From a virus, in UHGV virus genome UHGV-0368393: 36,737 bases of DNA; one strand, given 5' to 3'. The notes beneath the pieces were generated by a model. It had not been told where the DNA came from. It ran no database searches and worked only from the letters and a program-made list of their open reading frames with translations. Both the position numbers and the translations under genes were made by a program. Below, in pieces: positions 1,949 through 30,242 of the stretch; the stretch's first letter is position 1, and each line of letters opens with the position of its first letter.

Positions 1949-1949
1949 G

Positions 1950-2020
1950 CGGAGTATAGCATCAATGGTAGATGCGCAGGGTCGCGCCCTGTGTCCTTGG
2001 TTCGATTCCAAGTGCTCCGC
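1950..2020 (+). tRNA. tRNA-like element, possibly a degenerate tRNA. Acceptor, D and T arms are canonical but the anticodon arm is 2 nt short. If a 7-nt loop is forced the anticodon reads CGC (Ala).
   Basis: Acceptor CGGAGTA/TGCTCCG plus discriminator C. D arm GCAT-CAATGGTAG-ATGC. T arm CTTGG-TTCGATT-CCAAG. Only 20 nt lie between the D and T arms. Confidence 0.35.
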
Positions 2021-2213
2021 TTTGTGATGTGAGTATACAGGCTGCACAGCTGAGGTCTGTTCTGGGAGTGCACACCGGACTTACATTGCAATGGTACCAA
2101 AAAGCAGATATCCGCAGATCTGCAAAACAAACAAAAATAGATTCAGCAATCTATATTTAGTGTCAGTACCCGAGTGCGGATAGGGTAAAGGGTGTCAATA
2201 AAAGGCATCCTAC

Positions 2214-2286
2214 GGGTGTATAGCTCAGTTGGTAGAGTGATCGGCTTTTAACCGACGTGTCGCAGGTTCGAATCCTGCTATACCCG
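2214..2286 (+). tRNA. tRNA-Lys (anticodon TTT)
   Basis: Cloverleaf read by hand. Acceptor GGGTGTA/TATACCC with discriminator G. D arm GCTC-AGTTGGTA-GAGT. Anticodon loop CTTTTAA. T arm GCAGG-TTCGAAT-CCTGC. No encoded CCA. Confidence 0.8.
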
Positions 2287-2290
2287 TTGT

Positions 2291-22078: not shown

Positions 22079-22100
22079 TTTACAACACACTTACAACAAA
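22079..22100. repeat. 22-bp direct repeat copy 2, overlapping the integrase stop codon
   Basis: Identical to 21882..21903. Confidence 0.9.
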
Positions 22101-23245
22101 TTGATTTCTATTTTTTCAATCTCATTTCTTAAGTCTTCCAATGTCCGGTGACCATATGTGTCATTTGTAATATCACCTATCTTATGTCCAAGCATTCTTT
22201 TTCGATCATTCTCCGCGACTTTATATTTTTCGCACAATTTTGAAAATGTGTGCCGGCAATCATGTGGAGTATGCTTTTCAATTCCAAGTGCGGACAGTTG
22301 CGCATACATCTTATCCCGGAATATATCGATTCTATCAGGCAGGATATAACCCTGTACTTTTATCCTGTGCTTTACAAGATTTAAAATCCCGGAATAAATC
22401 GGAACGGTTCTGTTTTTCCCAGCATCCGTTTTGATACCACCCAAAAAATAACGTTCTTTCAAATGGACTTCTAAAGTCTTATATTCAGAGATTCGAAAGC
22501 CGGAGTAGCACATGATCAGAATCATCTCGGACACTTCATTTTCTTTTGTTTCCCACAATTTCTTCAAATCTTCATCAGTAAATGGAATGCCATGCTCGTC
22601 ATCGTCATCCTGTGTGATTTCGACATAAGACGAATAATCTTTTGTACATAAATTGTTTGCCATAGCATACTTGTACATGTGATAGTATAGATTTTGGATG
22701 TGTTCTATGCTGGCGTGTCTAAGTGGACAAGCGTCCATTACTTCCTGTAGATCGTCTGTAACAAGCTCTGCGAAAATTCTGTTGTGTAGGGCAGCGGAGT
22801 TCTTGAATCCTGCGCGTAGCGTATATTCTAAGCTGGTACGTTTTACTTTTTTCGCATCGTATTCATGCCCAAACTTTTTAACATTGAATTTCCGGTATAC
22901 TTCCGCAAATGTTAATTGTGGCTCTTCCTTTGATTTAATTCCTTGCACCTGATTATAATTTGCAAGCAGAGACTGGATAAAATCCTCCGCATTCTTTTTG
23001 TCATCCACCTGGATATCATTTTCCATGCCGGGAGTATAGGTGCCGGCTTTGTATGCTGTCAGTACTGCGAAGCCGATCATCCAGTCAGAAACATAGCATA
23101 TTGCTTTCTGTGGCTTCATTTGCCCGTTTTCGTATTCTTCTTTAGCTGGCGGGTAAACGCCGTAAGGATTGCGGCGCCCTTTGCCGAGAAAGCGTATCTG
23201 ACCGTAACCATTGGGCAAACGAGGATGCTTTTTTCTTTTGGCCAT
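22091..23245 (-). CDS. int: Tyrosine recombinase / phage integrase
   Basis: Catalytic signature HDCRHTF plus a downstream tyrosine (TNDTYGHR). Real start MAKRKKHP with an AAAGGAG RBS. The 23314 track start adds an artefactual leader. Confidence 0.85.
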   Translation of the reverse strand: MAKRKKHPRLPNGYGQIRFLGKGRRNPYGVYPPAKEEYENGQMKPQKAICYVSDWMIGFAVLTAYKAGTYTPGMENDIQVDDKKNAEDFIQSLLANYNQVQGIKSKEEPQLTFAEVYRKFNVKKFGHEYDAKKVKRTSLEYTLRAGFKNSAALHNRIFAELVTDDLQEVMDACPLRHASIEHIQNLYYHMYKYAMANNLCTKDYSSYVEITQDDDDEHGIPFTDEDLKKLWETKENEVSEMILIMCYSGFRISEYKTLEVHLKERYFLGGIKTDAGKNRTVPIYSGILNLVKHRIKVQGYILPDRIDIFRDKMYAQLSALGIEKHTPHDCRHTFSKLCEKYKVAENDRKRMLGHKIGDITNDTYGHRTLEDLRNEIEKIEINLL

Positions 23246-23414
23246 ACAATCATCTCCTTTAAAATTAAGTATAAAAATAACAGCCAGCACATGAACAAAT
23301 GTTCTGGATTGCAAGCTGTTTCCGAAGATGATACAATATTCTTGGATTTCAATCGCATATCTTCGGATATGTAGACCGTCTCAGTGTTGGTAGCACTGGG
23401 GCGGTTTTTCTATT

Positions 23415-23945
23415 TTATTGTACGGCGATTTTTTGAGTGTCTTTTTTGTTGTCAAACGATATCATATCAGATGCTTCAATCGTGAGTTCTGTGTCACTCT
23501 TTAATTTATACACCTGACACACTTCAACGGTTCCACCTGGCTGTACTTCGTTCAAGGCGTAGTTGTTCATAGAGTCGTTCTGTTCAGTCATGATTCCTAT
23601 TTCACACTCACTGCCATCTTGGAAACACTGCACGTTTGCTGTAATTCCAGCTGTTGCATTTTCATCAGAATTGTTCGTGAAAGTGTAGTAGTAAAGCAGA
23701 CATTTATTTCCCTCATAATCATTCGCAAATTCATGTCGTACATATTTTACATTAAATTTTTCTGCTGTAAAATCTATGATTCCGTCATCCACTGGCTGAG
23801 CTTCTTCTTTTGGCTCTTCTTTCTGCTCTGTTGTTGCTTCTGTCGTTGTCTCGGCGTCTCTGGATGGTTCGGCATCCCCACCACATGCTGTAATGGATAA
23901 TGCCATAGCTCCTACTAATAACATTGCTACAATTTTCTTTTTCAT
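23415..23945 (-). CDS. Lipoprotein (candidate superinfection-exclusion / lysogenic-conversion protein)
   Basis: Signal peptide with the lipobox LSITAC, then a Thr/Glu-rich linker and a beta-rich domain. Sits between int and the repressor. Confidence 0.7.
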   Translation of the reverse strand: MKKKIVAMLLVGAMALSITACGGDAEPSRDAETTTEATTEQKEEPKEEAQPVDDGIIDFTAEKFNVKYVRHEFANDYEGNKCLLYYYTFTNNSDENATAGITANVQCFQDGSECEIGIMTEQNDSMNNYALNEVQPGGTVEVCQVYKLKSDTELTIEASDMISFDNKKDTQKIAVQ

Positions 23946-24005: not shown

Positions 24006-24491
24006 TTATATCATTTCCATAACTGCTAAATTAGGAATAAAATAAATAACATAATTATCTACAGTAGTACATTCACCATATTTTCCAGTATAGCAGTCAA
24101 TAGCTTCCTGCAGATATTCTTCTGTGACATGTAGATGTTCTGCAACTTCATATCGATTCTGGCATCCAGCATTAAAAGCGGATATGATACCACGTAACCC
24201 GATCATTCGGTTATATCCGCGTAATCGACCTTTTTGTTCTTGCTTTAGATTTTCAATATTCATTTGGTCAATGATATTTCCAACAGCAGTGAAATGATGT
24301 CCCATTTCTTCTGCGAGTACACACGCTTTTTCTGTTGATGTTCTTAACCTATCAGATATTGCAATTCTATTTCTGAATATTCGTCCATCACTCCCGGACA
24401 GAGGCTTCTCACGGACTACGAGTCCGCTATTTTTCGCCTCTTCTAAAAGTTCCTCATAAATTGTCATCGTATCACTCCCATTCAGAGTCAT
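24006..24491 (-). CDS. ImmA/IrrE-family metallopeptidase (anti-repressor protease of the immunity module)
   Basis: HEMGHH HExxH motif. Co-oriented with and overlapping the 3' end of the XRE repressor gene. Confidence 0.75.
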   Translation of the reverse strand: MTLNGSDTMTIYEELLEEAKNSGLVVREKPLSGSDGRIFRNRIAISDRLRTSTEKACVLAEEMGHHFTAVGNIIDQMNIENLKQEQKGRLRGYNRMIGLRGIISAFNAGCQNRYEVAEHLHVTEEYLQEAIDCYTGKYGECTTVDNYVIYFIPNLAVMEMI

Positions 24492-24963
24492 CCATCATGA
24501 TGTCATCATCATGTTTTCTCATTTCATTGGTTACTTTAATATCGGTACGTTCGTGAGCCGCCATTACTGATAGATCATCATCCATTTGTTGTATAGATAG
24601 CAATTGTTCAATGTAATTATCGGCTTTTCTTCTATTCATCTCAATCAACTGCAAATACTTTTTAAAATGAGTCTTTTCTCTCGAAGATAATGCGCCAATG
24701 TTATCAATTATATTTTCGAGATTATCATTTGTAAATACGTTTTCAATGTATTTATCGGTAGCTGAATCTAAATCCATGAGATAGGTAGGTGAGCAATCAA
24801 AAATTTCTGACATTTTCGCAATAGTAGAACGTTTTATATTCTTAACTCGCCCATTCTCATATTTTGCTATCGCAGATTTTTGAAGCCCCAACTTCTGTGC
24901 AAGCTCTTCTTGGGTGAGCCCAACTTCTTTTCTTTTGCTCTTTATTCTATCTGACATTGCCAT
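24472..24963 (-). CDS. XRE-family HTH repressor (CI-like)
   Basis: N-terminal HTH_3 (LTQEELAQKLGLQKSAIAKYENG) plus a C-terminal oligomerisation region. Transcribed divergently from the cro-like gene. Confidence 0.8.
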   Translation of the reverse strand: MAMSDRIKSKRKEVGLTQEELAQKLGLQKSAIAKYENGRVKNIKRSTIAKMSEIFDCSPTYLMDLDSATDKYIENVFTNDNLENIIDNIGALSSREKTHFKKYLQLIEMNRRKADNYIEQLLSIQQMDDDLSVMAAHERTDIKVTNEMRKHDDDIMMDDSEWE

Positions 24964-25346: not shown

Positions 25347-25363
25347 GTGTCTAAAAAAGACAC
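25347..25363. promoter_or_regulatory. Second copy of the operator palindrome GTGTCT-N5-AGACAC between the cro-like and antirepressor genes
   Basis: Seen directly in the sequence. Confidence 0.5.
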
Positions 25364-25376
25364 AGAAAGAGGAAGT

Positions 25377-26153
25377 ATGAACAATTTAACAGTATTTGAA
25401 CAAAACGGTCAGTTACTCACCGACAGTAGAGAAGTGGCAATGATGGTAGGAAAAGACCATGCAAAACTATTAAGAGATATAAGAGAGTATTGCAAACATT
25501 TGAACGAATCCAATTTTGGATTGGTTGATTTCTTCATCGAATCAACTTACACAGATTCAAAGGGAGAAGTAAGACCATGTTACCTCTGCACAAAGAAAGG
25601 GTGCGACATGATCGCCAACAAAATGACCGGAAAGAAAGGTGTCATTTTCACAGCTACATATATTGAAGCATTCGAGAAGATGAAAGATTTCATCGAAAAA
25701 GGAACACAGTACGTTGGCATTCCATTAAAAGAACAGGTGGAATCACTGGAAGTGGTAGCAAGCATGTTAAGAATGAACGATGCAAGCAAGTTGCTGATGC
25801 TGAAAGGGTTCTATGATTCTTACCATATTCCGACAGGATTCTTACCGAATTATGAGTTCAACGGCAATAGGGAAATGAAGTCACTCACAGCACTACTGAA
25901 AGAAAATAATCTCGGAATCAGTGCAGTGCAGTTCAATAAGAAGCTTCTATCTGCCGGAATCTTGGAAGAAAAGGAACGCAAGTCCAGTAAGGGAATGGTG
26001 AAGAAGTTCAAATCACTGACGGAGAAAGGTTTGAAATACGGCGAGAATGCAGTCAGTCCTCATAATCAGAAAGAAGTGCAGCCGTTGTATTACAGTGACA
26101 CGTTTAATGAACTGTTTGATATGGTGATGACTGCTGACTTATCGGAATGGTAG
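25377..26153 (+). CDS. Antirepressor, Rha family (Phage_pRha N-terminal domain)
   Basis: Starts MNNLTVFEQNGQLLTDSREVAMMVGKDHAKLLRDIREY after an AGAGGAAGT RBS. Matches the Rha signature. Confidence 0.65.
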   Translation: MNNLTVFEQNGQLLTDSREVAMMVGKDHAKLLRDIREYCKHLNESNFGLVDFFIESTYTDSKGEVRPCYLCTKKGCDMIANKMTGKKGVIFTATYIEAFEKMKDFIEKGTQYVGIPLKEQVESLEVVASMLRMNDASKLLMLKGFYDSYHIPTGFLPNYEFNGNREMKSLTALLKENNLGISAVQFNKKLLSAGILEEKERKSSKGMVKKFKSLTEKGLKYGENAVSPHNQKEVQPLYYSDTFNELFDMVMTADLSEW

Positions 26154-26392
26154 AGGGCAGAGTAGTAGGAAATGTGGTGATAAAAATGGGAGCTACAAAG
26201 AGTTTAGCAAGGTATGTGCAAGAGAACTCAGTCAATCTTTCGGCAATGTCAAGAGAAACTGGTATTCCGTACATGGCGTTGTATGACAGCCTTGCAAATA
26301 AAAAAAGAGCTCGTCTGCTATCGTTTGATGAAGCACTTGTTATATGCAGATTTCTTGGAGTAAACCCGATGGATTTTGCGGAGGAAAAGTGA
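26147..26392 (+). CDS. Small XRE-type HTH protein
   Basis: SAMSRETGIPYMALYDSLANKK HTH-like core. About 70-80 aa depending on start. Confidence 0.5.
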   Translation: MVEGRVVGNVVIKMGATKSLARYVQENSVNLSAMSRETGIPYMALYDSLANKKRARLLSFDEALVICRFLGVNPMDFAEEK

Positions 26393-26395
26393 AAA

Positions 26396-26575
26396 ATGAA
26401 GATAGGCGTAGATACAGAAAACAGAGAAGAATATTTATTAAAAATTCTAAAAGAAGATATTCCGGTCAAGGAGATGGAAGAGCGTATTTTTAAAGAAATT
26501 GGAGAAAGACCTATTATAGATATGAACTGTGGGATGGAACCAGGAGTTTCAGGAAAGCCAGAATCTACTTTATAG
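26396..26575 (+). CDS. 59-aa hypothetical protein
   Basis: GGAGGAAAAGTGAAAA RBS. Its 3' end overlaps the 3' end of the convergent minus-strand gene. Confidence 0.35.
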   Translation: MKIGVDTENREEYLLKILKEDIPVKEMEERIFKEIGERPIIDMNCGMEPGVSGKPESTL

Positions 26576-27320
26576 ATTCTGACAAACCGAAAATATTTGA
26601 AATTTCGATTAATGCGCTACGACATTCTGCAGCGGAAATGGATATCCATTCCAGTAAAGCATCCGACAAAGAACTTGTATCACTTATATTGCAGAGAAGT
26701 GGAACAGCACTCCAAGTATTCGGATGCGATTGAAAAATAGGAAGCAATCGGTTAGCTATATACGAATTCATATCTCGCAGATATGGATCAGAATCTAATT
26801 TTTTTGCAAGCTGTGTTTTTGGTGTTTTACAAAGCTGCGATATTTCAAATGGAATTGCTTTTTGCACATCATTTTCAACATAAGTTTTAAAACAAGGATA
26901 GTACAATTGTCCGTCTGCAGTCATTAGGTTAATGGCGGTATTTTGCCAATATTCGGAAAGTTTTGGTAAAAAATAGTATGACGAAAGTTCACAAATGGAC
27001 TCTTCAAGCCATCGTAAATTCTGTTGTACTTTTCCATGAATGACTGTGTGACACATTTCATGAGCAAGCTGATATGCAAGTCGTGACCACGAGGATGGAT
27101 TTGAGTTCAAGATAATCAAATCTGACTCTTTAAAACAAGCGGGGCATTCCCGTTCCTTCTGAATAGTTATTGTGGTTGAAACGCTTTGTATAGGGAGAAC
27201 TTCGTTCATTACTCGAAGAAGCGTATCTATTACAAGCAACATATTTTCATCTGCTGTATCCGATTTACCGCAATTGAAATGAATTTGAGGAAAAGAATTA
27301 ATAGAAATAAGCTTTCCCAT
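26565..27320 (-). CDS. ImmA/IrrE-like HExxH metallopeptidase domain with a ~130-aa C-terminal extension of unknown function (opposite-strand moron)
   Basis: SRLAYQLAHEMCHTVIHG followed by LEESICELSSYYFLP, matching the ImmA HExxH...EE..FA.ELL.P arrangement. True start MGKLISINS after GGAGG. The 27335 GTG track start is the RBS read as codons. Confidence 0.6.
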   Translation of the reverse strand: MGKLISINSFPQIHFNCGKSDTADENMLLVIDTLLRVMNEVLPIQSVSTTITIQKERECPACFKESDLIILNSNPSSWSRLAYQLAHEMCHTVIHGKVQQNLRWLEESICELSSYYFLPKLSEYWQNTAINLMTADGQLYYPCFKTYVENDVQKAIPFEISQLCKTPKTQLAKKLDSDPYLRDMNSYIANRLLPIFQSHPNTWSAVPLLCNISDTSSLSDALLEWISISAAECRSALIEISNIFGLSESIK

Positions 27321-27348
27321 TTTAAAAACCTCCACATTAAATGATTAT

Positions 27349-27381
27349 GAAAATATTTTAACATGAAGTTAAAATATTTTC
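27349..27381. promoter_or_regulatory. 14-bp perfect inverted repeat with a 5-bp spacer (GAAAATATTTTAAC-ATGAA-GTTAAAATATTTTC), a candidate operator
   Basis: Located in the divergent intergenic region just upstream of the minus-strand ImmA-like gene. Confidence 0.6.
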
Positions 27382-27768
27382 AAGTTTCAAAGGGAAACAA
27401 ACCGATTTTAGAAAGGAGAAAAAATGAAAACAAGAAAAGATTTTTTAACAGATGAACAGGTAGAACAGGAAATTGAAAGATTGAATCAATCTGATGCCGC
27501 ACAGCTTTTTATATAGGAACAGCGCATTAAATATAAGAGGAGACAGTACCTGTATCAACTCAGATGCCATGAGAAGAGAGGAAAGCAGTTAATCCGTGAC
27601 GGAGTGAAGATGGAACAGCTTGAGTTGATGGAAAAGGAGATGGAAGAGTGATGTTGGAAGTACTTGGAAGTATCGCTACTATTGCAGCAACAATAGTACA
27701 AGCTGTAAGCGTAGTGCGTCTTATGAAGATTGAAAAGGAACTGAATAAAATGTACAAAAGGAGATCAA

Positions 27769-28530
27769 ATGAACGAATTAAAAGTAATTGAAAATGAACT
27801 TGTCCCAGTATACGAGACAAGTACAGGAGAAAAAGTAGTATACGGTTCAGAACTGCATGAGGTTCTGGGAGCACCAAGTGTTTACCGCGAATGGGTGAAA
27901 CGCAGATTATCAGATATTGATGCTATTGAAAATGAAGATTTTCAAGGCGTAGAAATTCCTACACCTTCCGGTCAGACTAAAAAAGACCACATAATCAAAC
28001 TGGATACTGCCAAAGAAATGGCAATGCTTGAGCGGAACGAAAAAGGAAAGCAAGTACGCAGATATTTCATCCGGGTAGAAAAGAAATACAAAGCGGCATC
28101 TCTTGCCACACAAGAACTCTCACCGCAGTTACAGGTCATGATTAACTTGGAAATTGAGCAGAAGCGTCAGGCAGAGAAGCTTGAGCACGTGGAAGAACGG
28201 ATTGAAAGCATCCGTGAGGTTGTTGCAATCGATACAACATCATGGAGAGAAGATACCGGAAGAATCTTGAGAAAAATTGGTATGGAGTGCGGAGACAGCA
28301 AGTCTTATCAAGATGTAAGGGCAGAATCCTATCAGTTGTTAGAAAAACGTATGGGAGTGAATGTAAAGCAGAGACTCACAAACAAACGTAGAAGAATGGC
28401 AGATGAGGGTGTTTGCAAATCCAGAAGAGACAAATTGAATTATCTGGATGTGATCGCTGATGATAAGAAGCTGATTGAGGGATATACGGCTATCGTAAAA
28501 GAGTTGGCTATTAAATACGGAGTGGCGTAG
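27769..28530 (+). CDS. Antirepressor, AntA-family N-terminal domain with a C-terminal coiled-coil domain
   Basis: ELVPVYE...GSELHEVLG...YREWVKRRL...ENEDFQ matches the AntA signature. AAAAGGAG RBS. Confidence 0.65.
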   Translation: MNELKVIENELVPVYETSTGEKVVYGSELHEVLGAPSVYREWVKRRLSDIDAIENEDFQGVEIPTPSGQTKKDHIIKLDTAKEMAMLERNEKGKQVRRYFIRVEKKYKAASLATQELSPQLQVMINLEIEQKRQAEKLEHVEERIESIREVVAIDTTSWREDTGRILRKIGMECGDSKSYQDVRAESYQLLEKRMGVNVKQRLTNKRRRMADEGVCKSRRDKLNYLDVIADDKKLIEGYTAIVKELAIKYGVA

Positions 28531-29451: not shown

Positions 29452-29964
29452 ATGAAAAAATTTGAATTAACCAGCGAATTTGTAACTTTTTTAGGAAAGA
29501 CGCTCTTTAGAATCAAGGCTCTTGTGTCGTTTGGTGATGTAGCAGAGGGAGAATTGGGCGGATTTATAGAAAGGGAGAATAATCTTGACCAGTCCGGTGA
29601 CGCTTGGGTATACGGTGACGCTCAGGTATACGGTGACGCTCAGGTATACGGTAACGCTCAGGTATCCGGTGACGCTCGGGTATACGGTGACGCTCATGTA
29701 TACGGTAACGCTTGGGTATACGGTGACGCTTGGGTTCAAAACTGCCGTGATTATTCTGCTACAAGCTGCTTCGGATCGGAAAATAGGACGACAACATTTT
29801 TCCGCACGAAAGACGGCGGAATCAGCGTGAGATGTGGATGTTTTTACGGAACACTGAGGGAATTTAGAGAAAAGGTGAAAGAACGACACGGAGACAGTCG
29901 ACTGGCAAAGGAATATTTGATGCTGGCAGATTTGATGGAGTTTAGATTGTCTAAGGATGAGTAG
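29452..29964 (+). CDS. Hexapeptide-repeat (left-handed beta-helix-like) protein
   Basis: Seven tandem [AW/Q]VYG[DN]A hexapeptides encoded by 18-bp tandem DNA repeats (29602-29745). Cys-rich C-terminal region. Confidence 0.55.
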   Translation: MKKFELTSEFVTFLGKTLFRIKALVSFGDVAEGELGGFIERENNLDQSGDAWVYGDAQVYGDAQVYGNAQVSGDARVYGDAHVYGNAWVYGDAWVQNCRDYSATSCFGSENRTTTFFRTKDGGISVRCGCFYGTLREFREKVKERHGDSRLAKEYLMLADLMEFRLSKDE

Positions 29965-29975
29965 GAGGATAAGCA

Positions 29976-30242
29976 ATGGATAGAAAGAAAATACATGAAC
30001 TTTTAGACTTAATTCTTGAGATTCAAGAGCGCGGAGAAGGTAAGGATGGGTATCCGTACGTAAACATTGAATTTTCGAACTACGGTAGCAGAATAGTTCT
30101 CTGGGCGCAAGAAAACGGATTTGTTGCTGATGAAGATTTCGATTTGTTTGACGGTATTGAAACAGATAAGCAACTAGATGATGCAATTATTTTAGTTGGG
30201 GTATTGCTGGAAATGGCAGTGGACAAGACGGAGGACGAATGA
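29976..30242 (+). CDS. Hypothetical acidic protein
   Basis: ORF with an RBS. Confidence 0.4.
   Translation: MDRKKIHELLDLILEIQERGEGKDGYPYVNIEFSNYGSRIVLWAQENGFVADEDFDLFDGIETDKQLDDAIILVGVLLEMAVDKTEDE

What the first reader, a model, noticed from the sequence alone, without database searches (positions are those of the whole stretch)
26147..27791. Opposite-strand ImmA-like protease with extra C-terminal domain, convergent XRE gene and its own operator, embedded between two antirepressor genes
The canonical immunity pair (XRE repressor 24472-24963 and ImmA 24006-24491) is already present. Two kilobases away sits a second HExxH/ImmA-like protein of about 251 aa (26565..27320). It carries an ~130-aa C-terminal extension of unknown function and is the only minus-strand gene in the early region. 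A small plus-strand XRE protein and a 59-aa ORF converge on it, with 3' ends overlapping by about 10 bp. A 14-bp perfect palindrome lies upstream. Three tiny ORFs follow on the plus side (30 aa, 13 aa, and a 46-aa hydrophobic peptide). This looks like a self-contained regulatory, sensor or defence-like moron. It could be a second protease-based derepression switch or a phage-borne anti-phage / superinfection module, and it does not match the standard ImmR/ImmA architecture.
Basis: partly seen in the sequence, partly recalled or inferred. Interest (0 to 1): 0.75.

Follow-up and report, generated by a model that had tools for sequence, protein, structure and literature searches.

The report
Orphan zinc protease with collagen-tagged partner
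A Ruminococcus gnavus prophage carries an optional gene cassette whose protein is not a second ImmA but a member of a large, unnamed family of thermolysin/M1-like zinc proteases. Across distant bacteria this protease sits tail-to-tail with a small protein that carries a short collagen-like Gly-x-x tag, probably its dedicated target.

Summary
The ORFs and coordinates are real. The gene at 26565..27320 (-) encodes a 251-aa HExxH protein, the only reverse-oriented gene between the Rha and AntA antirepressor genes. A 59-aa ORF overlaps its 3' end by 11 bp. A perfect 15+15 nt inverted repeat lies upstream.

The "ImmA plus extra C-terminal domain" reading is not supported:
- The whole protein folds as one compact gluzincin domain (pLDDT 95).
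- It falls below the Pfam M78 cut-off.
- It shows no profile similarity to the phage's own ImmA (hhalign 0.4%).

The protein belongs to an unannotated family of about 1,650 clusters at 50% identity, spread over many phyla.

New observation: in Firmicutes prophages and in Proteobacteria, the gene converges on a small ORF carrying a collagen-like G-x-x-G-x-x-G motif. This holds for 37/62 convergent partner ORFs against 18/744 control ORFs. Enzyme and partner are both cytoplasmic, or both carry signal peptides.

In close relatives the 1.4-kb block 26377-27777 is nearly identical while its flanks are mosaic. It is present in only 11 of 43 relatives and absent from six isolated R. gnavus phages. 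So it is a moron-like cassette.

Best model (inferred): the protease acts on the tagged early protein.

The parts
26565..27320 (-). Stand-alone gluzincin gene ('GLZ'), 251 aa. HEMCH at residues 87-91 and WLEESIC at 104-110 (E107 is the predicted third zinc ligand). No signal peptide.
26396..26575 (+). 59-aa partner ORF, last gene of the plus-strand run that converges on GLZ. GGAGG upstream. C-terminal tail ...NCGMEPGVSGKPESTL.
   Evidence: Always present with GLZ and never found without at least a GLZ remnant in 43 relatives. The 40%-identical homologue next to the 61%-identical GLZ (L231) keeps G-x-x-G-K-P-E and the same 11-nt overlap. Only close homologues (>=93% identity) exist in the protein database.
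26528..26563 (+). Collagen-like tail of the partner (CGMEPGVSGKPE, residues 45-56). This is a degenerate form of the G-x-x-G-x-x-G motif seen in partners at other loci.
   Evidence: Motif survey. The window copy satisfies only the relaxed form (G-x-x-G-K-P-E).
26565..26575 (.). 11-bp overlap of the two convergent 3' ends.
   Evidence: Coordinates. Convergent overlaps of 3-124 nt recur in about 30 of 40 distinct viral loci.
27329..27333 (-). Shine-Dalgarno GGAGG, 8 nt before the ATG of GLZ.
   Evidence: Read directly from the sequence.
27348..27382 (.). Perfect inverted repeat TGAAAATATTTTAAC-N5-GTTAAAATATTTTCA in the divergent intergenic region.
   Evidence: RNA fold z = -6.9. Found in 18/18 loci with this GLZ allele and in none without it. 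No perfect repeat with arms of 15 nt or more lies upstream of GLZ in any other clade; three loci have 8-nt arms.
27355..27383 (-). Promoter-like site for GLZ (TTGAAA-17-TAAAAT with TG), inside the inverted repeat. A mirror site on the + strand lies at 27347-27375.
   Evidence: Consensus scan only. The number of sites in the region is no higher than in shuffles, so this is a prediction, not evidence.
26377..27777 (.). Extent of the exchanged cassette (partner ORF, GLZ, inverted repeat, interrupted 76-aa ORF, most of the 46-aa ORF).
   Evidence: 0-2 mismatches per 100 nt against five relatives, while the flanks reach 30-50 mismatches per 100 nt.
26147..26392 (+). Cro/C1-type HTH gene (HTH_26). 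It is a positional neighbour and not part of the conserved block.
   Evidence: Pfam 2e-05. Allele swapped in L083/L084, and present without GLZ in L081 and L097.
27424..27651 (+). 76-aa ORF interrupted by an in-frame TAG (27514-27516).
   Evidence: Translation. Intact 76-aa homologue in L091, 3160..3390.
27648..27791 (+). 46/47-aa ORF with a hydrophobic N-terminus, overlapping the AntA start.
   Evidence: Versions at 71-76% identity lie upstream of AntA in GLZ-less relatives.

Best explanation
The locus is a horizontally exchanged, optional two-gene module in a Mediterraneibacter (Ruminococcus) gnavus prophage. It pairs (i) a cytoplasmic, stand-alone zinc metallopeptidase of the thermolysin/M1 ('gluzincin') type from a large uncharacterised family with (ii) a small protein encoded tail-to-tail with it at the end of the early lytic run. 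The small protein carries a short collagen-like Gly-x-x-Gly tail.

Shown:
- the fold and the invariant HExxH...E site;
- the accessory distribution and the cassette boundaries;
- the orientation, which matches the integrase, repressor and ImmA genes;
- the recurrent pairing of this protease family with convergent small ORFs carrying a G-x-x-G-x-x-G motif, in unrelated partner families and in two phyla, with matching cell compartments.

Inferred mechanism: the collagen-like tag is the recognition or cleavage site of the protease.
- In the lysogen, the protease would be made from its own promoter, which lies inside the 15-bp inverted repeat.
- There it would remove any tagged early protein produced by leaky expression of the prophage or by an incoming related phage.
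- That would hold back the early lytic programme.
- Full early transcription runs antisense through the protease gene. By transcriptional interference or antisense pairing it would shut the gene off.

The adjacent XRE gene is a positional neighbour, not a specific partner.
For: Fold and active site:
- AF2 pLDDT 95.2, pTM 0.93.
- HE[ML]CH...W[LF]EES[IVL]C is invariant. By my reading it aligns residue for residue with the M1 motif HExxH...WLNEGFA.

Family size and lack of annotation:
- 1,648 clusters.
- No hit above threshold in Pfam, NCBIfam or PDB sequences. All source names are 'hypothetical protein', apart from one 'peptidase'.

Accessory cassette.

Partner association:
- Convergent overlapping small ORFs occur in about 30 of 40 distinct viral loci.
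- The G..G..G motif is in 37/62 partner ORFs against 18/744 other small ORFs from the same loci (odds ratio 60, p about 1e-33). Shuffling each partner's own composition predicts 2.8.
- At least 16 mutually non-homologous partner families carry the motif.
- Codon usage varies within the motif, so it is selected at the peptide level, not the DNA level.
- The motif sits at either the N- or the C-terminus.
- Proteobacterial enzymes and their partners both have signal peptides.
- The window's partner tail G-x-x-G-K-P-E is conserved at 40% overall identity.

Orientation and placement in the lysogeny/early switch region in all Firmicutes phage contexts examined.
Against: - No experiment or co-fold links enzyme and partner.
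- The window's own partner has only a degenerate motif (EPGVSGKPE), not the strict G-x-x-G-x-x-G.
- Some family members have no such partner: L003, L034/L036, the Thiothrix operons, and the XRE-GLZ-RelA/SpoT loci.
- A natural deletion variant keeps the partner without the protease (L103 and MT838860). The pair is therefore not obligatory for the phage.
- Expression in the lysogen is inferred from orientation alone. The promoter-like sites are not enriched over shuffles.
- Loci are phylogenetically related, so the p-value overstates independence.
- Substrate and inhibitor roles cannot be told apart from sequence.
Confidence: 0.45

Rival explanations
1. Prophage-encoded anti-phage or superinfection-exclusion protease. 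The gluzincin, made in the lysogen, attacks a protein of incoming phages or a host protein in an abortive-infection manner. The small collagen-tagged protein is its pseudo-substrate inhibitor. It is produced from the early operon so that the prophage's own lytic cycle is spared.
For: - Accessory, moron-like distribution in a slot that carries other reverse-oriented cargo in relatives.
- In L231 the pair sits next to an Abi_alpha / PADLOC PDC-S47 gene in the same orientation.
- Same orientation as the lysogeny genes.
- Small inhibitors encoded beside metalloproteases are a known pattern (serralysin/Inh, protealysin/emfourin; from my own knowledge).
Against: - PADLOC gives no hit beyond local HExxH matches.
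- Partners are structurally unrelated and share only a short terminal tag. That looks more like a recognition tag than a folded inhibitor.
- The position right after cro in many phages points to the switch itself.
- Periplasmic pairs occur in non-phage Proteobacterial loci.
Confidence: 0.22
2. One reading: a second ImmA-type derepression switch, in which the protease cleaves an XRE repressor (the adjacent HTH_26 protein or the main repressor) in response to a signal.
For: - Weak local matches of the HExxH region to M78-type models: Pfam E 0.004, PADLOC RmrA 3.5e-5, CapP 6.6e-4, NCBIfam spr1629 1e-3.
- An XRE gene lies next door.
- In a rumen Lachnospiraceae subclade, an XRE gene sits directly upstream and co-directional with the homologue, as in immR-immA.
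Against: - Below the Pfam cut-off.
- hhalign against the phage's own ImmA family gives 0.4% probability over 13 columns.
- The fold is closest to M1/thermolysin. IrrE-like domains cover only the zincin core (TMq 0.35).
- The HTH_26 allele is replaced (49% identity) beside an identical cassette, and it occurs without the protease.
- The cassette occurs with three different immunity modules.
- The arrangement is convergent, not an operon.
Confidence: 0.1
3. Toxin-antitoxin-like addiction pair. The protease is toxic and the small protein, or the antisense overlap of the two transcripts, neutralises it, stabilising the prophage.
For: - Convergent genes with overlapping 3' ends resemble type I TA layouts in Firmicutes prophages (own knowledge).
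- The deletion variant lost the protease but kept the small ORF.
- Homologues sit beside a RelA/SpoT-type gene in some genomes.
Against: - The putative antitoxin belongs to the lytic operon, which should be silent in the lysogen.
- Many family members lack a partner.
- No similarity to any TA family was found.
Confidence: 0.08
4. No dedicated partner. The gene is a generic accessory peptidase, and the convergent small ORFs and their Gly motif are coincidental features of early-region ORFs.
For: - The small ORFs are unannotated and mostly unrelated to one another.
- In L029-L031, two consecutive small early ORFs both start with the motif. It may therefore be a general feature of such ORFs.
Against: - 60-fold enrichment relative to other small ORFs in the same loci.
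- Recurrence in Proteobacteria with matched signal peptides.
- Strict co-occurrence of orf59 with the gene among close relatives.
Confidence: 0.1

Closest known systems
ImmA/IrrE (MEROPS M78, Pfam PF06114) anti-repressor proteases with XRE repressors (ImmR/ImmA of ICEBs1, IrrE/DdrO, CapP/CapH)
   Same: A cytoplasmic HExxH zinc protease encoded in the regulatory region of a mobile element, next to HTH regulators. It is likely to act on one dedicated small protein.
   Different: - Below the family threshold, with no profile similarity to the phage's real ImmA.
- A complete two-subdomain M1/thermolysin-like fold, not the compact M78 core.
- Convergent arrangement, not an operon.
- The conserved neighbour is a collagen-tagged small protein, not an XRE repressor.
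M1 aminopeptidases / thermolysin-type gluzincins (clan MA(E))
   Same: Best structural matches. The HExxH helix is followed by a helix carrying the Glu ligand. The local motif HE[LM][AC]H...W[LF][NE]E[GS][FI][AC] matches, and there is a helical C-terminal subdomain.
   Different: - Only the catalytic domain (about 250 aa), without the N-terminal beta-saddle or the C-terminal ERAP-type domains.
- The spacer between HExxH and Glu is 3 residues shorter.
- No GxMEN exopeptidase motif.
- No sequence-level hit to Pfam Peptidase_M1.
Listeria monocytogenes phage-derived Mtz/Tim locus (Boichis et al. 2021, PMC8235301)
   Same: A phage-type CI/Cro switch region carries a zinc metalloprotease and a small partner protein that the protease cleaves. 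The locus is accessory.
   Different: - Mtz is a secreted metzincin and Tim a TIMP-like lipoprotein.
- Their genes are co-directional, downstream of cro, and act on the cell wall.
- Here the enzyme is a cytoplasmic gluzincin, the partner is a 59-aa soluble protein with a Gly-x-x tail, and the genes converge.
Lambda CII / FtsH (HflB) / OOP antisense RNA (own knowledge)
   Same: - A small labile early protein is encoded just downstream of cro.
- An HExxH zinc protease degrades it.
- A convergent transcript overlaps its 3' end.
   Different: In lambda the protease is a host membrane AAA+ enzyme and OOP is non-coding. Here the phage would bring its own soluble protease, whose mRNA is the antisense transcript. 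This is an analogy only and was not tested.

Membership tests
ImmA/IrrE, Peptidase_M78 (PF06114) | Sequence match above the curated family threshold | tested here: not met
   17.3 bits against a gathering score of 22, covering only residues 66-129. phrog_87, the ImmA phrog, scores E 0.056, against 7.8e-31 for the phage's real ImmA.
ImmA/IrrE, Peptidase_M78 (PF06114) | Profile-profile similarity to bona fide ImmA proteins | tested here: not met
   hhalign of the 37-sequence family alignment against 23 ImmA homologues of this phage: probability 0.4%, E 0.15, 13 columns around the HExxH helix.
ImmA/IrrE, Peptidase_M78 (PF06114) | Fold closest to IrrE-type domains | tested here: not met
ImmA/IrrE, Peptidase_M78 (PF06114) | Encoded in an operon with, and cleaving, a cognate XRE repressor | tested here: not met
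   The arrangement is convergent. The XRE allele is swapped beside an identical cassette and occurs without the protease. Cleavage itself cannot be tested here.
Gluzincins of the thermolysin/M1 type (clan MA(E)) | HExxH plus a Glu ligand on the following helix, conserved across the family | tested here: met
   H87, E88, H91, E106 and E107 are invariant in 37 sequences. HExxH lies in helix 78-93 and the Glu residues in helix 100-127.
Gluzincins of the thermolysin/M1 type (clan MA(E)) | Two-subdomain catalytic fold (beta-sheet plus active-site helix, then a helical subdomain) | tested here: met
MEROPS M1 family proper (Pfam Peptidase_M1) | Sequence membership and the GxMEN exopeptidase motif | tested here: not met
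   No Pfam M1 hit at E <= 1. No GxMEN in the sequence. The HExxH-to-Glu spacing is 3 residues shorter than HExxH-X18-E.
Gluzincins (any) | Zinc binding and peptidase activity | not testable with these tools
   Needs purified protein.
Known anti-phage defence systems (PADLOC-DB v2) | Match to a defence-protein model over most of its length | tested here: not met
   Only local hits of 36-55 residues around HExxH to RmrA and CapP models, 14-21 bits.
Metzincin/TIMP-like pair (Listeria Mtz/Tim) | HExxHxxGxxH motif and secretion signals | tested here: not met
   The sequence reads HEMCHTVIHGK, with no Gly at +3 and no conserved third His. There is no signal peptide.
Proposed 'gluzincin + collagen-tagged partner' module (defined here) | Convergent small ORF at the 3' end carrying G-x-x-G-x-x-G | tested here: inconclusive
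   The convergent 59-aa ORF with an 11-bp overlap is present. Its tail is EPGVSGKPE (G-x-x-G-K-P-E), which meets only the relaxed motif. The tail is conserved in the 40%-identical homologue.

The most novel reading that the evidence does not exclude
The protein defines a widespread, unrecognised protease-plus-tag system. A minimal M1-like gluzincin family would recognise short collagen-like Gly-x-x-Gly tags on otherwise unrelated small proteins. In temperate Firmicutes phages this pair would be wired antisense to the cro operon. That would make it a new, phage-encoded way of gating the lysis-lysogeny switch or excluding related phages: a self-supplied counterpart of lambda's FtsH/CII/OOP circuit.
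Probability: 0.3. Interest if true: 0.8.

Novelty: new variant of a known kind. Interest (0 to 1): 0.62.

Why it matters
If the pairing is functional, it would do three things:
- assign a first activity and a recognisable substrate tag to a protein family of more than 1,600 sequence clusters that has no name in Pfam, NCBIfam, PHROGs or the PDB;
- add a second, structurally different class of dedicated protease, besides ImmA/IrrE, to the regulatory regions of temperate phages of gut Firmicutes and streptococci;
- give a simple, testable handle (enzyme plus a 59-aa protein) on how R. gnavus prophages, which are associated with inflammatory bowel disease cohorts, control induction or exclude relatives.

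It also corrects an easy annotation error. 'HExxH next to an XRE gene' does not mean ImmA.

Tried and rejected
The key structural test could not be run.
- The AFDB50 fold library was unavailable.
- Sequence search of the PDB with the family profile found nothing.
- Pfam, NCBIfam and PHROGs gave no family for the enzyme, ten partner ORFs or the Proteobacterial pairs.
- N-terminally extended homologues (345-485 aa) carry no informative fused domain apart from one SLH case.
- A conserved operator: no inverted repeat with arms of 15 nt or more lies upstream of homologues in other clades, though three loci have 8-nt arms. Near-copies of the half-site elsewhere in the window are at chance level (7 found, 3.3 expected).
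- An intrinsic terminator between the convergent genes: none predicted.
- TAG recoding as the explanation for the in-frame stop: the window has no suppressor tRNA, only tRNA-Ala and tRNA-Lys.
- Four literature searches found no paper on this family. The pneumococcal 'szaL' zinc protein (PMC12637031) is described as surface-exposed, and I judged it unrelated.
- Alternative reverse-oriented cargo genes in the same slot of relatives have no PADLOC hit.


Full report
**1. What is in the sequence**

- A 251-aa ORF runs on the minus strand from the ATG at 27320 to 26565. A GGAGG lies 8 nt upstream.
- It sits between a Rha-type gene (25347-26153, PF09669, 6e-25) and an AntA-type gene (27769-28530, PF08346, 5e-16).
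- It is the only minus-strand gene among the early genes. It has the same orientation as the integrase (22091-23314), a lipoprotein gene (23415-23945), ImmA (24006-24491) and the XRE repressor (24472-24963).
- Upstream on the plus strand lie a Cro/C1-type HTH gene (26147-26392; HTH_26, 25.2 bits against a cut-off of 22) and a 59-aa ORF (26396-26575). The 59-aa ORF overlaps the 3' end of the minus-strand gene by 11 bp.
- The divergent intergenic region holds a perfect inverted repeat with 15-nt arms and a 5-nt spacer, at 27348-27382. Folded as RNA it scores z = -6.9 against shuffles. It overlaps promoter-like hexamers on both strands. The number of such sites in the region is not above the shuffle expectation, so they are predictions only.

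**2. The protein is not an ImmA with an added domain**

Sequence evidence:
- Pfam M78 scores 17.3 bits, below the cut-off of 22, and covers only the HExxH helix.
- PADLOC (RmrA, CapP), NCBIfam (spr1629) and PHROGs give only short local matches.
- A profile-profile comparison of the family against 23 homologues of the phage's own ImmA gives 0.4% probability over 13 columns.

Structure evidence:
- The AlphaFold2 model, built on 37 homologues, is a single compact domain (pLDDT 95.2, pTM 0.93).
- Foldseek against the PDB and BFVD agrees. IrrE-like domains appear only at ranks 20 and 31 in BFVD and cover only the zincin core.
- The '130-aa extension' is therefore the helical C-terminal subdomain of a gluzincin.

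Active site:
- H87, E88, C90, H91, W104, E106, E107, S108, I109 and C110 are invariant, as are Y140, Y147, R182 and N185.
- By my reading, HE[ML]CH...WLEESIC lines up with the M1 signature HExxH...WLNEGFA. E107 would be the third zinc ligand.
- The M1 GxMEN motif is absent, so an aminopeptidase mode is not implied.
- There is no signal peptide.

**3. The family**
- A word-indexed search found 57 homologues of 236-266 aa, none with a Pfam domain.
- A full profile search found 1,648 clusters at 50% identity with E <= 1e-3, and 1,052 with E <= 1e-10.
- Members occur in Lachnospiraceae, Oscillospiraceae, streptococci, Lactococcus, Lapidilactobacillus, Oceanobacillus, Thiothrix, Betaproteobacteria, Planctomycetota, Verrucomicrobiota and Bacteroidota.
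- Source names are 'hypothetical protein', with one 'peptidase'. The exact window protein is common in Mediterraneibacter gnavus genomes.
- The family profile finds no relative among PDB sequences.
- I found no paper on this family.

**4. It is an optional cassette**
- Among 43 IMG/VR relatives whose AntA is at least 86% identical, 11 carry the gene. Every one of these contigs that extends far enough upstream also carries the 59-aa ORF. The ORF is never found without at least a remnant of the gene.
- The block 26377-27777 shows 0-2 mismatches per 100 nt in five relatives. The HTH gene on one side and the start of AntA on the other reach 30-50 mismatches per 100 nt.
- The cassette occurs with different immunity modules and integrases.
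- Six isolated R. gnavus phages (MT980836-41) share 92-95% nucleotide identity over about half of an 8-kb query around the cassette and lack it. Their Rha-AntA slot holds other small reverse-oriented genes. So do L081 and L091.
- A deletion variant seen in two datasets (L103 and MT838860) lacks 26683-27544 but keeps the 59-aa ORF.
- The HTH_26 gene is not part of the unit. Its allele is swapped (49% identity) in L083/L084, and it occurs without the protease in L081 and L097.

**5. The conserved partner**

Placement in Firmicutes:
- In every Firmicutes phage context inspected, the gene lies in the lysogeny/early switch region. It points the same way as the repressor and integrase, typically two genes downstream of the Cro-like gene.
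- In about 30 of 40 distinct viral loci, a small ORF (54-134 aa) converges on it and overlaps its 3' end by 3-124 nt.

The shared motif:
- These ORFs are mostly unrelated to one another and have no family assignment, apart from one that matches phrog_28679, a family of unknown function.
- They share a short collagen-like motif: GEPGVKG, GEPGPQG, GAPGPQG, GKPGVPG, GPAGVPG, GLRGEPGP and similar. It sits at either the N- or the C-terminus.
- Codons within the motif vary, so the signal is at the peptide level.

Statistics:
- With an unbiased ORF selection, 37 of 62 convergent partners carry G..G..G, against 18 of 744 other small ORFs in the same loci (odds ratio 60, p about 1e-33). Shuffling each partner's composition predicts 2.8.
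- At least 16 mutually non-homologous partner families carry the motif. The ORF choice in that count was slightly biased towards motif-bearing ORFs.

Proteobacteria:
- The homologues there have signal peptides.
- The convergent downstream ORFs also have signal peptides and carry GAAGPSGP, GQAGRAGPE or GVPGLMG.
- Enzyme and partner are therefore in the same compartment in both lineages.

The window's own partner:
- It ends ...NCGMEPGVSGKPESTL, a degenerate form of the motif.
- Its 40%-identical homologue lies next to the 61%-identical enzyme (L231). That homologue ends ...CGAPGKPEPIK, conserving G-x-x-G-K-P-E and the 11-nt overlap.
- In L231 the pair lies beside an Abi_alpha / PDC-S47 gene.

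**6. Exceptions**
- Some members lack the partner (L003, L034/L036).
- Thiothrix loci place the gene between a two-component system and an M23 peptidase.
- A rumen Lachnospiraceae subclade has XRE-enzyme-RelA/SpoT-UPF0158, all co-directional. This last arrangement keeps an ImmA-like role alive for part of the family.

**7. Mechanism**

Shown:
- a conserved, probably active gluzincin;
- an accessory cassette;
- an orientation matching the lysogeny genes;
- a statistically strong and phylogenetically broad pairing with collagen-tagged small proteins.

Inferred: the tag is the enzyme's recognition or cleavage site.

I favour a substrate role (0.45). A short terminal tag shared by unrelated small proteins behaves like a degron rather than a folded inhibitor. 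The partner also occupies the position just after cro, where labile decision factors such as lambda CII are encoded.

Under this model:
- the protease, made in the lysogen, clears the tagged early protein of the prophage or of related incoming phages;
- strong early transcription runs antisense across the protease gene and silences it.

Rivals:
- defence protease with a pseudo-substrate self-inhibitor (0.22);
- ImmA-like cleavage of an XRE repressor (0.10);
- no real partner (0.10);
- TA-like addiction (0.08).

**8. Verdict**

The 'second ImmA with an extra domain and its own XRE/operator' reading is largely wrong. The 'self-contained moron that does not fit ImmR/ImmA' reading is right.

The closest known systems are ImmA/ImmR-type pairs and the Listeria Mtz/Tim pair (PMC8235301). 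This is a different protease family, a different partner type and a different gene arrangement, so I rate it a new variant of a known kind. Interest is moderate to high because of the unexpected, cross-phylum protease-tag association.

Noticed in passing
An intact homologue in L091 (3160..3390) has Gln at that position. The stop is present in all cassette-carrying relatives, whose block is essentially identical (0-2 mismatches per 100 nt). It is either a pseudogene or a read-through/recoding site. The window contains no suppressor tRNA.
   Followed up: partly
window 24006-24491 (-), residues 61-65: The phage's genuine ImmA reads AEEMGHH, with EExxH in place of HExxH. E61, E62 and H65 are invariant in 23 homologues. 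Many members of this ImmA subfamily still pass the Pfam M78 threshold despite lacking the first His ligand.
   Followed up: partly
L034 2927-3679 and 4001-4759: One viral contig carries two tandem, diverged copies of the gluzincin gene.
   Followed up: no
L091 3595-4414 (-); L081 4018-4461 (-); L229 4704-4859 (-); L230 4264-4488 (-): The slot between Rha and AntA in related R. gnavus phages holds other reverse-oriented genes: 142+132 aa, 147 aa, 51 aa and 74 aa. The 51-aa and 74-aa genes converge on a small plus-strand ORF (for the other two this was not checked). None has a PADLOC hit. The slot looks like a hotspot for antisense cargo.
   Followed up: partly
L165 2966-5215 (also L162, L167, L168, L169; L172 only partly): In rumen Lachnospiraceae genomes the homologue sits in a co-directional run: XRE (114 aa), gluzincin, RelA/SpoT-domain protein (293 aa), UPF0158. 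L172 has the XRE but a different downstream gene. The layout resembles an XRE-protease-toxSAS arrangement.
   Followed up: partly
window 29452-29964 (+): A 170-aa ORF contains a run of about seven tandem 6-residue repeats (GDAQVY/GNAQVS/GDARVY...). A long antisense ORF (29491-30186) overlaps it, and the gene callers left this region unannotated in L001.
   Followed up: no
window 23415-23945 (-): A 176-aa lipoprotein (signal peptide ending in a ...SITAC lipobox) lies between the integrase and ImmA. This is the usual position of superinfection-exclusion lipoproteins. Relatives annotate the equivalent gene as a 'beta-sandwich domain' or 'superinfection exclusion' protein.
   Followed up: no
window 1949-2287 (+): Two tRNA genes (Ala-CGC, Lys-TTT) lie near the start of the window. 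They may be host flank or phage cargo.
   Followed up: no
L029/L030 (convergent 105-aa ORF and the next 67-aa ORF); L031: In some phages two consecutive small early ORFs both begin with the collagen-like tag (MCYPGLKGERG..., ...PIGEKGEKG...). One protease may therefore have several tagged clients.
   Followed up: no
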